A DNA stretch of 64,000 nt from assembly GCA_964016885.1 (NCBI GenBank), contig OZ024766.1, positions 5,208,001 to 5,272,000 on the forward strand, written 5' to 3'. Below, in pieces: positions 15,319 through 63,621 of this stretch (position 1 is its first letter; each line of letters begins with the position of its first letter). Source of the stretch: Eledone cirrhosa (Eukaryota). Position numbers and translations under genes: made by a program. Below the pieces are notes generated by a model, which did no database searches, was not told the origin of the DNA, and saw nothing but the letters and a program-made list of their open reading frames with translations.

Positions 15319-17162
15319 TTATCCTTCAAATGTTATTTTCATGGTCACTTCTGAGAAATACGACCTTGTTTGAGGTTTCAACTTTATGAAATATTCACCA
15401 GATTTTGGATTTGTCATGGTAACCTGTTGGTCAGTTCCAGGTTTGTTTGATCTCCATTTCGTGAGATGTTCTTTACAGTTAACCTTCCGGAAACAAACAT
15501 AAAGATCCACATCCCCTTCACCGGAGAATGTCAGGACATTCACTTTCTTCCACGGTGTCTTCTTTACGGTAAGTTTAAAGATGACTTCCTCACCTTCTAC
15601 AGATTTAAGTTTCTCCACAGTCGAGTTCTGATGGACGCTACGTACATATATAGAGATATCACACGCTTTAATGCCGACCTTATTGAAAGACTTCTTAACG
15701 GCCTTCAAATCGTAGCCAAGGTCGTACGCGGCTTTTATAATATCGCAAGCGCCCTCTTTAAAGCCAGTTATTGGATGCCAATAGAAGCGATTTGCGAGGG
15801 CAGCTATCTGAAATGTCTTTTGCACATTCCAGCCCTCACTTTTCGACAAAAGGCAGAAAAACCTGTTAAATATACCACTGGAGTAGTGTACATTAAGGTC
15901 ATCACGGTATTTGCTGGTGTGTATAATTGAAGAACCGTCATCTGATTGCTTACACATTTTCCGCAGTGGCTTGGAGGAAATGTCCTCTCCGATTTCCCAA
16001 TTGTTTTTGTCAAATTCAAAGTATTCCGCTGTTGCTCCAGCCAGGTCGCTGTAAGCTTCATCTATTGCCCCTGACTGAGCTTCATATATCAAACCAGAGT
16101 TCTCCTCAGTGAAACAGTGCGAGACTTCATGGGCAACAATATCTAAGGCGACGAGGGGCATATAATCTTTGTTACCATCACCAAATGAAAAGGTTTTCCC
16201 ATTGTAAAAAGCATTTACAACATCACGACCATAATGCACTTGAAATATCATAGGAAGCTCTTTTTTTGGTGACACATTCGCCCATTCCTTGTACATGTTG
16301 TAGACAACCGAACCATAAAACAAAGCATCATTTATAGGTGAATAAGCATTGTTAATTTCATCTTGCGACCCTTTCTTACAATTAACATGATAAATTTTCT
16401 GTTCATCGGCATTTAAAATCTTTCTACCCTTCATATTGAAAACTTTAACGTCATTATTTAAAAAATAACAATCTTCACCACTTTGTTCCACATTTAAATA
16501 TGGCATGTCCTCTCCATATACATGTTTCCCCATCAATTTATTACCTCCACTACCTTCTATTTCATGAGGCACTAGTTTATTTTCCAGAGCGTTCCATTTC
16601 TCAAGAAGGTCTCCAGTCTTAGCATCAATCATCATACAGAATCGATAATTTCTCTTATCAGTCACAGCGAAATATCTCACTCGATATACCAAGAAACCTT
16701 TCTGGTCCTTCACATAGATCTCCAACAGGGGTTTCTCACTCTCTATATGGACCCCTTCTGTCGTGAAATTACCGTACATCACCGCTAACTTCACAGCTTC
16801 GTCTTCAGTGACATTTGGTTTCGTAGATTCGATGTCTTTGTCAAGATTTTGGACAAGTTTCCCGGTCACTTGACCAGTATAGAGGTCAGTCACTGCATCA
16901 GTCTCGACAGTGAGGGTAGCATCAAACACTGGAAGTCCTTCATAAGTTTCTTTGTACTTCTTGATGTCAGTTCCTTGGACGCTCTGAGCAGAATCTGTCA
17001 GTTTTACGTCCTCATTCTCTGTCATGCCAAACAGGTCCCTTGTGGTGATTAAACGATGGGGTTCCCGCTTCATCTTCTCACTCAGGGATTCCACGTTGGA
17101 CAAGAACACGTCCCTAGCCTGTCGCCATTTTGCTGACATCACAACATCGTTGCCCAGCAACG
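15319..17162 (-). CDS. M4 (thermolysin/LasB/vibriolysin-type) zinc metalloprotease, copy 1, exon 2; joins exon 1 at 20311-20359 to give 630 aa
   Basis: HEVSH at 16117-16131, GAIDEAYSD third ligand, NAFY, VHYSSG, FTP (YEGLPVF) and PepSY (IDAKTGDLL) propeptide, PPC domain (GDVDLYV). Collinear with LasB (GGN..GK..YG, AYSP.NDA.F.G.VV, NR.YW, GAC). Polypyrimidine+tag acceptor at 17163. The poly-Ile N-terminus of the 650-aa ORF is intronic (aat)n. Confidence 0.93.
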
Positions 17163-17279
17163 CTAGACACAAGAAAAAAAACAATAAGATGTTAAAAATA
17201 ATAATAATAATAATAATAATAATAATAATAATAATAATAATAACAATAATAATGCTTTCTTTATTAACCACAAGGGTTT

Positions 17280-17790
17280 ACATAAAGTAGACATTAAGGA
17301 CAGTACAGGACAGTACAGGACAATACAGGGCGGTACAAATTGGCATTTCTGCATGTAAAAAAAACAGAGGATGTAATAAAAATAACAATGAAAAATTCCC
17401 CAATAGGGGGGAGACTTCCGATGGACATTTGTGGAGAAAGCCCATTAAAAGGCCACAGTGACCCTGACCACCAGGGCAAGTGCCCTCTCCCAGTTTTCCA
17501 CCTTTAATTTACAGACACATACTCAGAGAAGGCCCATTCACTCGGGCCATACTTGCTTCTCTCACCCATCTTTCAACAAAATGCTGGGAAGAGAGCACTT
17601 CCCTCTCTATCCTTATTTTCCTTTTCAAATGAAATTTGAAAAAGTCAATCAGGGCATCACCGAAGAGGTAAGTGCTCGTCTTCAGCCCTTTCAAACGTGT
17701 CCACCATACTATCTCTTTCGCCATGGCCACCAGACAGATAAAAACCGCCTGCCCTTCCCGGCTAAAGGAAGAAGGCGGGGCAAACAATAA
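17280..17790 (-). mobile_element. LINE 3' fragment (Tx1/L1-like) in M4 intron
   Basis: Translation AMAKEIVWWTRLK...FKFHLKRKIRIER...FVERW resembles the Tx1-type ORF2 C-terminus. It is followed by a 3' UTR and an (att)n tail. Confidence 0.55.
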
Positions 17791-18081
17791 TAATAACAGT
17801 TTCATTTATAGGCCACAGGGGCTGACATGTAGGGGACAATACAAAAGACGGGGCCAGTGGGGAGTTTACATATACATATACATATACATAAACAATATAA
17901 ATAACAATAACAAAATAACAAGAAAAATACAAGAAAAATTCCTCAATGGGGGGGGGGGGGGATAACCACCCAGGGTTGACTCAGATACTCCACCAATCCT
18001 GAACCACCCAACGCTTCCAGAGCACCCGGGAAGGGCACCCCCTCTCCTCCTCAAATTCACCCACCTACAGGCGCATTATCA

Positions 18082-61100: not shown

Positions 61101-63540
61101 AAAGTTTCACCAAGTAACCCCAACCAGAACCTCAACTGTCCTGGCCACAGCTCCTGTCCAAAGTTTCACCAAGTAAACACAACCAGAACCTCAGCTCTCC
61201 TGGCCACAGCTCCTGTCCAAAGTTTCACCAAGTAAACACAACCAGAACCTCAACTCTCCTGGCCACAGCTCCTGTCCAAAGTTTCACCAAGTAACCACAA
61301 CCAGAACCTCAGCTCTCCTGGCCACAGCTCCTGTCCAAAGTTTCACCAAGTAAACACAACCAGAACCTCAACTCTCCTGGCCACAGCTCCTGTCCAAAGT
61401 TTCACCAAGTAACCACAGCCAGAACCTCAGCTCTCCTGGCCACAGCTCCTGTCCAAAGTTTCACCAAGTAACCACAACCAGAACCTCAGCTCTCCTGGCC
61501 ACAGCTCCTGTCCAATGTTTCACCAAGTAACCACAACCAGAACCTCAGCTCTCCTGGCCACAGCTCCTGTCCAAAGTTTCACCAAGTAACCACAACCAGA
61601 ACCTCAACTCTCCTGGCCACAGCTCCTGTCCAAAGTTTCACCAAGTAACCACAACCAGAACCTCAGCTCTCCTGGCCACAGCTCCTGTCCAAAGTTTCAC
61701 CAAGTAACCACAACCAGAACCTCAACTCTCCTGGCCACAGCTCCTGTCCAAAGTTTCACCAAGTAACCACAACCAGAACCTCAGCTCTCCTGGCCACAGC
61801 TCCTGTCCAAAGTTTCACCAAGTAACCACAACCAGAACCTCAGCTCTCCTGGCCACAGCTCCTGTCCAAAGTTTCACCAAGTAACCACAACCAGAACCTC
61901 AGCTCTCCTGGCCACAGCTCCTGTCCAAAGTTTCACCAAGTAACCACAACCAGAACCTCAACTCTCCTGGCCACAGCTCCTGTCCAAAGTTTCACCAAGT
62001 GACCCCAACCAGAACCTCAGCTCTCCTGGCCACAGCTCCTGTCCAAAGTTTCACCAAGTAACCACAACCAGAACCTCAACTCTCCTGGCCACAGCTCCTG
62101 TCCAAAGTTTCACCAAGTAACCACAACCAGAATCTCAGCTCTCCTGGCCACAGCTCCTGTCCAAAGTTTCACCAAGTAACCACAACCAGAACCTCAGCTG
62201 TCCTGGCCACAGCTCCTGTCCAAAGTTTCACCAAGTGACCACAGCCAGAACCTCAGCTCTCCTGGCCACAGCTCCTGTCCAAAGTTTCACCAAGTAAACA
62301 CAGCCAGAACCTCAGCTCTCCTGGCCACAGCTCCTGTCCAAAGTTTCACCAAGTAAACACAACCAGAACCTCAGCTCTCCTGGCCACAGCTCCTGTCCAA
62401 AGGTTCACCAAGTAAACACAGCCAGAACCTCAGCTGTCCTGGCCACAGCTCCTGTCCAAAGTTTCACCAAGTGACCCCAACCAGAACCTCAACTCTCCTG
62501 GCCACAATTCCTGTCCAAAGTTTCACCAAGTAAACACAACCAGAACCTCAACTCTCCTGGCCACAGCTCCTGTCCAAAGTTTCACCAAGTAACCACAGCC
62601 AGAACCTCAGCTCTCCTGGCCACAGCTCCTGTCCAAAGTTTCACCAAGTAACCACAGCCAGAACCTCAGCTCTCCTGGCCACAGCTCCTGTCCAAAGTTT
62701 CACCAAGTAACCACAACCAGAACCTCAGCTCTCCTGGCCACAGCTCCTGTCCAAAGTTTCACCAAGTAACCACAGCCAGAACCTCAGCTCTCCTGGCCAC
62801 AGCTCCTGTCCAAAGTTTCACCAAGTAACCACAGCCAGAACCTCAGCTGTCCTGGCCACAGCTCCTGTCCAAAGTTTCACCAAGTGACCCCAACCAGAAC
62901 CTCAACTCTCCTGGCCACAATTCCTGTCCAAAGTTTCACCAAGTAACCACAACCAGAACCTCAGCTCTCCTGGCCACAGCTCCTGTCCAAAGTTTCACCA
63001 AGTAACCACAACCAGAACCTCAGCTCTCCTGGCCACAGCTCCTGTCCAAAGTTTCACCAAGTGACCCCAACCAGAACCTCAGCTCTCCTGGCCACAGCTC
63101 CTGTCCAAAGTTTCACCAAGTAACCACAGCCAGAACCTCAGCTGTCCTGGCCACAGCTCCTGTCCAAAGTTTCACCAAGTAACCACAACCAGAACCTCAG
63201 CTCTCCTGGCCACAGCTCCTGTCCAAAGTTTCACCAAGTGACCCCAACCAGAACCTCAACTCTCCTGGCCACAATTCCTGTCCAAAGTTTCACCAAGTAA
63301 CCACAGCCAGAACCTCAGCTCTCCTGGCCACAGCTCCTGTCCAAAGTTTCACCAAGTAACCACAACCAGAAACTCAGCTGTCCTGGTCACAGCTTCTGTC
63401 CAAAGTTTCAGGAAGTGACCACAACCAGAACCTCAGCTCTCCTGGCCACAGCTTCTGTCCAAAGTTTCACCAAGTAACCACAACCAGAACCTCAGCTCTC
63501 CTGGCCACAGCTCCTGTCCAAAGGTTCACCAAGTAACCAC
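61101..63540 (+). repeat. 59-bp VNTR upstream of M4 copy 4 (~41 units)
   Basis: Same unit as the other 59-bp arrays. Confidence 0.95.
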
Positions 63541-63572
63541 CTCTTGCTGACCTTGTATCACTCTGACTCAAA

Positions 63573-63621
63573 ATGATGACCTCCAGCATTGACCTTTCCT
63601 TCCTCTTTCTCGTGACAGTTG
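63573..63621 (+). CDS. M4 protease copy 4, exon 1 (MMTSSIDLSFLFLVTV); remainder expected beyond the window
   Basis: Identical to copy 1 exon 1. Donor gtgagt at 63622. Confidence 0.75.

What the first reader, a model, noticed from the sequence alone, without database searches (positions are those of the whole stretch)
15319..63621. Expanded cluster of bacterial-type (LasB/vibriolysin-like) M4 metalloprotease genes in an animal genome: candidate domesticated horizontal transfer
Seen: at least four copies embedded among animal SINEs, LINEs and microsatellites. The whole FTP-PepSY-catalytic-PPC region lies in one intron-free exon, and each copy has a spliceosomal intron near the 5' end, which argues against bacterial contamination. 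Established: this architecture and the motifs (GGN..GK..YG, AYSP.NDA, AHEVSH.FTE.NSGLIY..QSG...EA.SD, VH.SSG..NR, two Cys pairs) are those of gammaproteobacterial M4 proteases such as Pseudomonas LasB and Vibrio vibriolysin/HapA, and M4 is predominantly a bacterial family. Inference: a horizontally acquired secreted protease that was amplified, perhaps for digestive, salivary/venom, hatching or defensive use. Whether this is already described, or how old it is, cannot be judged without a search.
Basis: partly seen in the sequence, partly recalled or inferred. Interest (0 to 1): 0.9.

Follow-up and report, generated by a model that had tools for sequence, protein, structure and literature searches.

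The report
Octopus cluster of bacterial-type proteases
An octopus genome holds four near-identical, intron-bearing genes for a protein-cutting enzyme of a family known almost only from bacteria, likely taken up from bacteria before molluscs diversified, and the copies differ almost only in the cutting domain, mostly around the pocket predicted to choose what gets cut.

Summary
The window has three complete M4 (LasB/vibriolysin-type) coding exons plus exon 1 of a fourth, whose exon 2 lies 6.4 kb past the window. All four have a GT-AG phase-1 intron. Copy 2's exon 1 is out of frame as assembled. The genome is an octopod's and has 8 M4 loci.

The gene is not octopus-specific and not recent. Relatives in cuttlefish, bivalves, snails and a chiton form one clade (97/95) with two old paralogue lineages. 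That clade sits in a wider, probably animal clade (99/97) among bacterial LasB-type proteins, with no identifiable donor. Old horizontal transfer is likely. Nesting inside Gammaproteobacteria is not shown.

New here: copies 1 and 2 differ at 35 of 303 catalytic residues but only 2 of 310 elsewhere. The changes spare conserved columns (1 of 46) and hit 5 of 7 S1' pocket residues. Gene conversion explains part of the contrast, and the formal selection test is fragile (p 6e-4, falling to 0.08). Expression and tissue of these copies are untested. Eight literature searches found no paper on molluscan M4 transfer.

The parts
20311..20359 (-). Copy 1 exon 1 (start codon and most of the predicted signal peptide), phase-1 GT donor
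17163..20310 (-). Copy 1 intron, 3148 nt, GT...AG, holding 72-bp and 76-bp tandem arrays
15319..17162 (-). Copy 1 exon 2: propeptide (FTP), M4 catalytic domain (about 16566-15655; HEVSH at 16131-16117), PPC-like tail. Hydrophobic S1' type (Y/L/I/I/L)
20392..22832 (-). 59-bp minisatellite (41 units) ending about 35 nt upstream of the copy 1 start codon
31211..32708 (+). 59-bp minisatellite (25 units) upstream of copy 2; its last units are degenerate
32742..32788 (+). Copy 2 exon 1, out of frame with a stop at codon 6 as assembled (real lesion or local assembly error, undecided)
32789..37972 (+). Copy 2 intron, 5184 nt
37973..39816 (+). Copy 2 exon 2, intact; catalytic domain from 38569 (HEVSH at 39004-39018). 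Altered S1' type (E/F/M/F/I)
46285..47427 (+). 59-bp minisatellite (19 units) upstream of copy 3
47463..47508 (+). Copy 3 exon 1 (uses the second ATG; in frame)
47509..51487 (+). Copy 3 intron, 3979 nt
51488..53331 (+). Copy 3 exon 2, intact; 99.5% identical to copy 2; altered S1' type
61100..63540 (+). 59-bp minisatellite (41 units) upstream of copy 4
63573..63621 (+). Copy 4 exon 1, identical to that of copy 1
63622..64000 (+). Start of the copy 4 intron (6790 nt). Exon 2 lies beyond the window at G000:C27:5278412-5280255, intact, hydrophobic S1' type, basic surface

Best explanation
The cluster is four recent copies of an octopus gene for a LasB/vibriolysin-type M4 zinc protease, predicted to be secreted and active, likely acquired from bacteria before molluscs diversified, and its copies are likely diverging in what they cut.

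How it would work. Exon 1 and the start of exon 2 give a signal peptide (inferred from hydropathy and orthologues). The propeptide would fold and silence the enzyme and then be removed, as in LasB and vibriolysin (family knowledge). Zinc would be held by H146, H150 and E170, with E147 as base and H227, Y161 and R202 as in LasB; all are present in all four copies (shown). The PPC-like tail would bind insoluble protein (recalled).

Two pocket types. Copies 1 and 4 keep a hydrophobic S1' pocket like LasB. Copies 2 and 3 replace 5 of 7 pocket residues (Y>E, L>F, I>M, I>F, L>I; shown), which would narrow the pocket and make its rim acidic, so they would prefer other residues (inferred). Copy 4 has gained positive surface charge (catalytic pI 8.5 against 5.1-5.6; computed).

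Evolution and use. Gene conversion keeps propeptide and tail alike (shown against the C27b paralogue), while selection likely keeps the catalytic domains different. The most likely use is extracellular breakdown of prey protein in saliva or gut (about 45%, untested). Step odds: bacterial origin 0.8, active secreted enzyme 0.9, diversifying selection 0.65.
For: Host gene: intron and exon 1 are shared with paralogues C27b and C25; 8 loci on 4 contigs; Octopus and Argonauta homologues at 58-63%.

Age: named relatives in Sepia, Pecten, Saccostrea, Mytilus, Pinctada, Pomacea, Haliotis, Littorina and the chiton Liolophura. The mollusc clade has 97/95, lineage A 100/99 and lineage B 100/97; both lineages hold cephalopods and bivalves.

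Bacterial origin: the animal clade (99/97) lies on the LasB side of a 100/99 branch against Bacillus and Streptomyces M4. The body of the gene has no intron. All 20 clusters listed by the atlas are 98-100% bacterial (a lead only). PMC7851659 calls M4 'known almost exclusively from bacteria'.

Enzyme: model pLDDT 96.7, TM 0.96 and rmsd 1.1 A to MCP-02, catalytic residues invariant in 82 sequences.

Diversification: 35 of 303 against 2 of 310 residues differ (Fisher p 1.5e-9). 1 of 46 variable sites falls in 57 conserved columns (p 4e-4). 5 of the 7 S1' residues listed in PMC4407726 differ (p 3e-4). E129, M137 and F186 (LasB numbers) occur in 0 of 79 other sequences. M1a/M2a on the catalytic domain gives p 6e-4. 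The propeptide is more conserved than the catalytic domain in 6 of 8 octopod pairs, and the reverse holds in 6 of 6 bacterial and 5 of 5 other mollusc-clade pairs (pairs not independent; one further pair failed to parse).
Against: No donor lineage is resolved. FastTree on all 385 rows gave mollusc monophyly only 0.22. A protist-collection transcript (P0366) falls inside the wider clade, which allows an older eukaryotic history.

Catalytic-domain omega is 1.5 and not different from 1 (p 0.20). M2a falls to p 0.077 without six adjacent-doublet codons, and doublets are also common in non-coding DNA. pN catalytic against non-coding divergence gives p 0.07. Conversion is evident (dS 0.22 propeptide against 1.7 catalytic, c1 versus C27b) and biases codon tests.

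There is no expression evidence for these copies. No lineage-A name or motif was found in the stored, cut supplements of an O. vulgaris salivary proteome and an ink proteome. c2 is broken as assembled, and c2 and c3 (0.5-0.8% apart) could be two haplotypes of one gene.
Confidence: 0.6

Rival explanations
1. The origin is the same, but the catalytic-domain contrast is not adaptive: conversion homogenises propeptide and tail while redundant copies drift under relaxed constraint, with c2/c3 decaying.
For: Omega 1.5 is not above 1. The site test is fragile. Conversion of the propeptide is shown. c2 exon 1 is broken as assembled, c3 has lost its first ATG, and the c2/c3 pocket residues are unseen in 79 relatives.
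Against: Changes avoid conserved columns (1 of 46, about 9 expected) yet pile into S1' (5 of 7). There is no stop or frameshift in 4 x 1844 nt of exon 2. c4's private changes mostly add positive charge.
Confidence: 0.2
2. The gene was not transferred into animals but is an old eukaryotic M4, or came through another eukaryote, and was lost in most lineages.
For: P0366, a transcript from a protist collection with a C-terminal hydrophobic segment, groups in the same 99/97 clade. There is no close bacterial sister. Only the top 120-150 rows of each search were seen.
Against: No named non-mollusc animal, fungal or plant protein appeared among the listed rows. The full bacterial FTP-M4-PPC layout sits in one exon. 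The eukaryote-like clade lies inside bacterial M4 diversity. P0366 is a long branch (0.83), and its pairing within that clade is weak (80/79).
Confidence: 0.12
3. The enzymes serve defence or tissue work (mucus, ink, egg-case or hatching) rather than feeding, and diverge to escape inhibitors or microbes.
For: A lineage-B paralogue was seen in O. vulgaris ink (1 peptide, 1 spectrum, 1 of 3 samples). Filter feeders and grazers also keep the family. No lineage-A hit in the stored salivary supplement.
Against: The ink hit is another lineage and minimal. The supplements were cut when stored. Nothing tested here separates tissues.
Confidence: 0.3
4. The cluster is partly an assembly artefact: c2 and c3 are haplotypes laid in tandem, so there are three genes.
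For: c2 and c3 differ by 0.5% in exon 2 and 0.5-0.8% outside it. The repeat units beside c2 exon 1 are error-like.
Against: Their flanking arrays differ in length (25 against 19 units; introns 5184 against 3979 nt). c1, c4 and c2/c3 differ by 2-4.5% in introns and downstream flanks and in orientation, so at least three genes stand.
Confidence: 0.2

Closest known systems
Vibriolysin MCP-02 / PlM4P and Pseudomonas elastase LasB (MEROPS M4)
   Same: Signal-propeptide-catalytic layout, HEXXH plus downstream Glu, His and Arg; 39-41% catalytic identity; TM 0.93-0.96; PPC-like tail as in vibriolysins; cysteines at 33/63 and 274/302 in the positions of the LasB disulfides (pairing recalled).
   Different: Animal nuclear gene with a spliceosomal intron; three extra catalytic-domain cysteines (151, 205, 238); 4-5 N-glycosylation sequons; propeptide more conserved than catalytic domain, the reverse of the bacterial pairs; S1' residues in c2/c3 not seen in 79 relatives.
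Database-annotated mollusc 'elastase', 'neutral protease-like', 'hemagglutinin/proteinase-like' proteins
   Same: Same family; nearest are Octopus and Argonauta lineage-A proteins at 58-63% with a colinear N-terminus.
   Different: These are automatic names with no study found. The four-copy cluster and its C27b sister form their own branch (100/99), a lineage-specific expansion.
Thermolysin (Bacillus M4)
   Same: Same fold and catalytic residues (TM 0.85).
   Different: 27-28% identity; on the other side of the 100/99 branch (using Bacillus plasmid M4s as stand-ins).
Bacterial genes domesticated by invertebrates, such as aerolysin-like biomphalysins and glycoside hydrolases; venom families with a conserved pro-region and fast mature region, such as conotoxins (all recalled)
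   Same: Old transfer, intron gain near the 5' end, tandem expansion, change concentrated in the mature part.
   Different: Here the cargo is an M4 endopeptidase, and no venom role is shown.

Membership tests
Peptidase family M4 (thermolysin family) | HEXXH zinc motif with a third Glu ligand about 20 residues downstream | tested here: met
   H146, E147, H150, E170 invariant in all four copies and 82 aligned sequences
Peptidase family M4 (thermolysin family) | Peptidase_M4 and Peptidase_M4_C domains above curated cut-offs | tested here: met
   87-89 and 109-111 bits against cut-offs 22.4 and 24.4, 3 of 3 window copies
Peptidase family M4 (thermolysin family) | Thermolysin fold with catalytic His, Tyr and Arg | tested here: met
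   Model of the c2 catalytic domain, pLDDT 96.7; TM 0.85-0.96 to solved M4 structures; H227, Y161, R202 invariant
Peptidase family M4 (thermolysin family) | FTP and PepSY propeptide | tested here: inconclusive
   FTP above cut-off. PepSY not reported for the window copies, though the region aligns with LasB and MCP-02 propeptides and scores weakly in the C2 paralogue
Peptidase family M4 (thermolysin family) | Zinc-dependent cleavage N-terminal to hydrophobic residues | not testable with these tools
   Needs an assay; the c2/c3 pocket predicts a departure
LasB/vibriolysin subgroup | Groups with proteobacterial M4 against Bacillus/Streptomyces M4 | tested here: met
   100/99 branch; best structures MCP-02, PlM4P, LasB, ProA
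LasB/vibriolysin subgroup | C-terminal PPC domain (vibriolysins) | tested here: inconclusive
   E 6-9e-4, 20.5-21 bits, under the 25.9 cut-off; aligns with Vibrio and Aeromonas PPC
Domesticated bacteria-to-animal transfer | Integrated in the host genome and shared by related hosts | tested here: met
   22 Mb contig, intron shared by paralogues, homologues across four mollusc classes
Domesticated bacteria-to-animal transfer | Nested within a supported donor clade | tested here: inconclusive
   Inside bacterial M4 diversity but in an open fork; animals plus Vibrionaceae p-AU 0.044
Domesticated bacteria-to-animal transfer | Expressed by the host | tested here: inconclusive
   Not shown for these copies; a lineage-B relative has one peptide and matching transcript clusters in O. 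vulgaris
Cephalopod salivary/venom protease | Enriched in posterior salivary gland or saliva | tested here: inconclusive
   0 hits in the stored, cut supplement of PMC7693380; not named in PMC7656900 text or 9 supplements

The most novel reading that the evidence does not exclude
One early transfer gave molluscs and probably annelids a bacterial virulence-type M4 protease that has gone unremarked, and octopods are now turning it into a diversifying secreted arsenal: tandem copies keep a shared propeptide by gene conversion while selection rebuilds the S1' pocket, giving a natural LasB-type enzyme with an acidic pocket and a new cleavage rule.
Probability: 0.3. Interest if true: 0.8.

Novelty: new variant of a known kind. 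Interest (0 to 1): 0.58.

Why it matters
M4 is treated as a bacterial family, and its members are pursued as antivirulence drug targets. A mollusc-wide, probably older, animal branch changes that picture and adds a protease to the list of old bacterial gifts to invertebrates. The cluster offers natural near-isogenic enzymes (94% identical) that differ at most S1' residues, which is a direct test of how M4 specificity is set. If they are salivary, they would be an overlooked part of octopus feeding secretions. The limits are that the genes already carry automatic database names, the transfer is ancient and donor-less, and function is untested.

Tried and rejected
Contamination was rejected: intron shared with paralogues, host-like GC and GC3 (0.41 and 0.42), 22 Mb contig, orthologues in other molluscs.

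A recent or octopus-specific transfer was rejected. A Vibrio donor is not supported (marginal).

Sequencing runs: 4 holders of one study, no RNA holder listed; this says nothing on expression. No reads were laid, so splicing, the c2 lesion and the c2/c3 question stay open.

A pattern scan of GTDB genomes gave 1 locus from 21 stretches, of little use. Earlier scan notes: none.

The shared-branch-length test (omega catalytic 2.4, p 0.001) was set aside because conversion breaks its assumption. Wholesale conversion of the c2/c3 catalytic domain from C27b was rejected: synonymous divergence among the copies is only 4-6% against dS 1.7 to C27b; at the 23 sites that separate the two types, C27b matches c2/c3 at 8 and c1/c4 at 5.

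Naming the non-mollusc clade failed: a third homologue search and two of three cluster look-ups returned no animal name for it; P0306 carries a gregarine-transcriptome label.

Tree rows: the careful tree used 82 of 385 rows. A long-branch Vibrio plasmid M4 that fell inside the animal-like group in FastTree was left out of it. No mixture model was run.

Literature on novelty gave no paper on animal M4 transfer. One review on peptidase origins was not held.
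Full report
OBSERVATION. Six-frame ORFs and tblastn show three full M4 coding exons in the window, at 17162-15319 (-), 37973-39816 (+) and 51488-53331 (+). A 49-nt exon 1 with a GTGAGT donor lies 3-7 kb upstream of each exon 2. A fourth exon 1 ends at 63621, and its exon 2 was found 6.4 kb beyond the window. 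All four exon 2s are 1844 nt without a stop. c1 and c4 give 630 aa and c3 gives 629 aa, with a hydrophobic N-terminus and 4-5 sequons. c2 exon 1 is out of frame with an early stop; the repeat units beside it are degenerate, so an assembly error is possible. c1 is inverted relative to the others. Pfam gives M4, M4_C and FTP above cut-off, PPC below it, and no PepSY. The window is 56% tandem repeat.

WHAT IT IS. The genome (3.0 Gb) holds 8 M4 loci by two searches: this cluster, C27b 3.7 Mb away, C25, C2 and C4. The best homologues are Octopus and Argonauta proteins at 58-63%, then cuttlefish, scallops and oysters, then Vibrio and Aeromonas at about 36%. The host is therefore an octopod, though not one of the named species at this locus. 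The C2 paralogue retrieves octopods, snails, abalone and pearl oyster, and a cluster look-up adds a chiton. The c2 catalytic domain folds at pLDDT 96.7 and matches vibriolysin MCP-02 at TM 0.96, LasB at 0.93-0.95 and thermolysin at 0.85. Zinc ligands and catalytic residues are invariant in 82 sequences.

ORIGIN. FastTree on 385 catalytic domains gave two mollusc lineages (0.996 and 0.98), joined weakly (0.22). IQ-TREE on 82 of those rows (LG+G4, no mixture) gave molluscs 97/95, lineage A 100/99 and lineage B 100/97. Both lineages hold cephalopods and bivalves, so the duplication predates their split. The molluscs sit in a 99/97 clade with 13 unnamed proteins and one protist-collection transcript. 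Many of the 13 share the N-terminal propeptide motif of the mollusc proteins and occur as several paralogues per long contig. One carries a gregarine-transcriptome label, and that parasite's host is a polychaete (recalled), so I read the group as likely annelid; this is inference. The whole clade lies with LasB-type bacterial proteins against Bacillus and Streptomyces (100/99), in an open fork. Forcing it with Vibrionaceae is marginally rejected (p-AU 0.044). An old transfer from bacteria is the best reading (about 0.8), without a donor. Exon 1 and the phase-1 intron are shared with C27b and C25, so the intron predates the cluster.

HOW THE COPIES DIFFER. c1 and c2 differ at 2 of 197 propeptide, 35 of 303 catalytic and 0 of 113 tail residues (p 1.5e-9). 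Intron and downstream divergence between the two types is 2.8-4.5%. PMC4407726 lists the LasB S1' site as V137, L197, L132, F129, H140, I186 and G187. Mapped through the alignment, five of these seven differ between c1/c4 (Y, L, I, I, L) and c2/c3 (E, F, M, F, I) (p 3e-4); the two unchanged ones are invariant in the family. I190, named in PMC9404851, is unchanged. E129, M137 and F186 occur in none of 79 other sequences. Only 1 of 46 variable sites is in the 57 conserved columns (p 4e-4). Catalytic pI is 5.6, 5.1, 5.2 and 8.5 for c1-c4. In other octopods the propeptide is also the more conserved part (6 of 8 pairs), the reverse of bacteria (6 of 6) and other mollusc-clade pairs (5 of 5).

AGAINST A SIMPLE SELECTION STORY. 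Whole-domain omega is 1.5 (p 0.20 against 1). M1a/M2a gives p 6e-4 on the catalytic domain but 0.077 once six adjacent-doublet codons are dropped, and doublets are frequent in non-coding DNA too. Against C27b, dS is 0.22 in the propeptide (98% identity over codons 91-150), 1.7 in the catalytic domain and 0.43 in the tail, so conversion homogenises the outer domains. Diversifying selection is likely (about 0.65) on the strength of where the changes fall, not of the codon test.

MECHANISM. Inferred from the family: a secreted zymogen whose propeptide is removed, a zinc endopeptidase core, and a substrate-binding tail. c1 and c4 would cut before hydrophobic residues like LasB. c2 and c3 would have a narrower pocket with an acidic rim (E129, E224), perhaps favouring smaller or basic residues. 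Feeding is my preferred role (about 45%), then defence or tissue remodelling (about 30%). Nothing here shows the tissue. No RNA holder was listed and no reads were laid.

LITERATURE. Eight searches on novelty (listings and abstract starts seen) found no paper on M4 in molluscs as a transfer. Seen as passages only: PMC4407726, PMC9404851, PMC7828527, PMC7851659 and PMC12032550. PMC7656900: term search of text and 9 supplements, no M4. PMC10142993: passages and supplement rows; one lineage-B peptide in ink, 1 of 3 samples, listed without comment. PMC7693380: supplement search only, no lineage-A hit. Both proteome supplements were cut when stored, subscription journals are missing, and large transfer screens may list these genes in tables I could not see.

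VERDICT. Real, host-encoded and very likely an active M4. The unreported animal branch and the pocket remodelling among near-identical copies keep it interesting. New variant of a known kind; interest 0.58.

Noticed in passing
L014 (G000:C27:8973948-8977019, -): The C27b paralogue carries an in-frame insert of about 370 aa of short repeats, many with Lys-Arg pairs, between propeptide and catalytic domain; the frame stays open for 1023 aa. Its propeptide shows recent conversion with the cluster.
   Followed up: partly
window 20392-22832, 31211-32708, 46285-47427, 61100-63540: A 59-bp minisatellite of 19-41 units ends about 35 nt upstream of every start codon. A genome search found it only at this cluster (54 of 55 matches, the other being C27b exon 1; only 5 candidates scored). 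It could affect expression.
   Followed up: partly
window 63573-63621 and L003: Most of copy 4's private amino-acid changes add positive charge; catalytic pI 8.5 against 5.1-5.6.
   Followed up: partly
window 29232-29647; 9419-10530 and 23949-27983: A 429-nt imperfect palindrome lies between the head-to-head copies c1 and c2, and a 51-bp array occurs in inverted orientation on both sides of c1; possible traces of the inversion.
   Followed up: no
proteins P0242, P0253, P0275, P0292, P0306, P0324 and relatives: A large unnamed, multi-copy M4 group sister to the molluscs, likely annelid; P0306 is filed under a gregarine and is likely host-derived.
   Followed up: partly
protein P0366: A LasB-type M4 from a protist transcript collection with a C-terminal hydrophobic segment, grouping with the animal clade.
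   Followed up: no
proteins P0019 and P0417: Two bivalve database models look like fusions: an oyster M4 with ion-channel domains (Pfam accessions) and a 950-aa mussel 'cathepsin L' in an M4 cluster; probably merged neighbouring genes.
   Followed up: no
catalytic positions 151, 205, 238 of all copies: Three cysteines absent from the four bacterial rows of alignment A1; 205 and 238 are kept across mollusc lineage A and may form a new disulfide.
   Followed up: no
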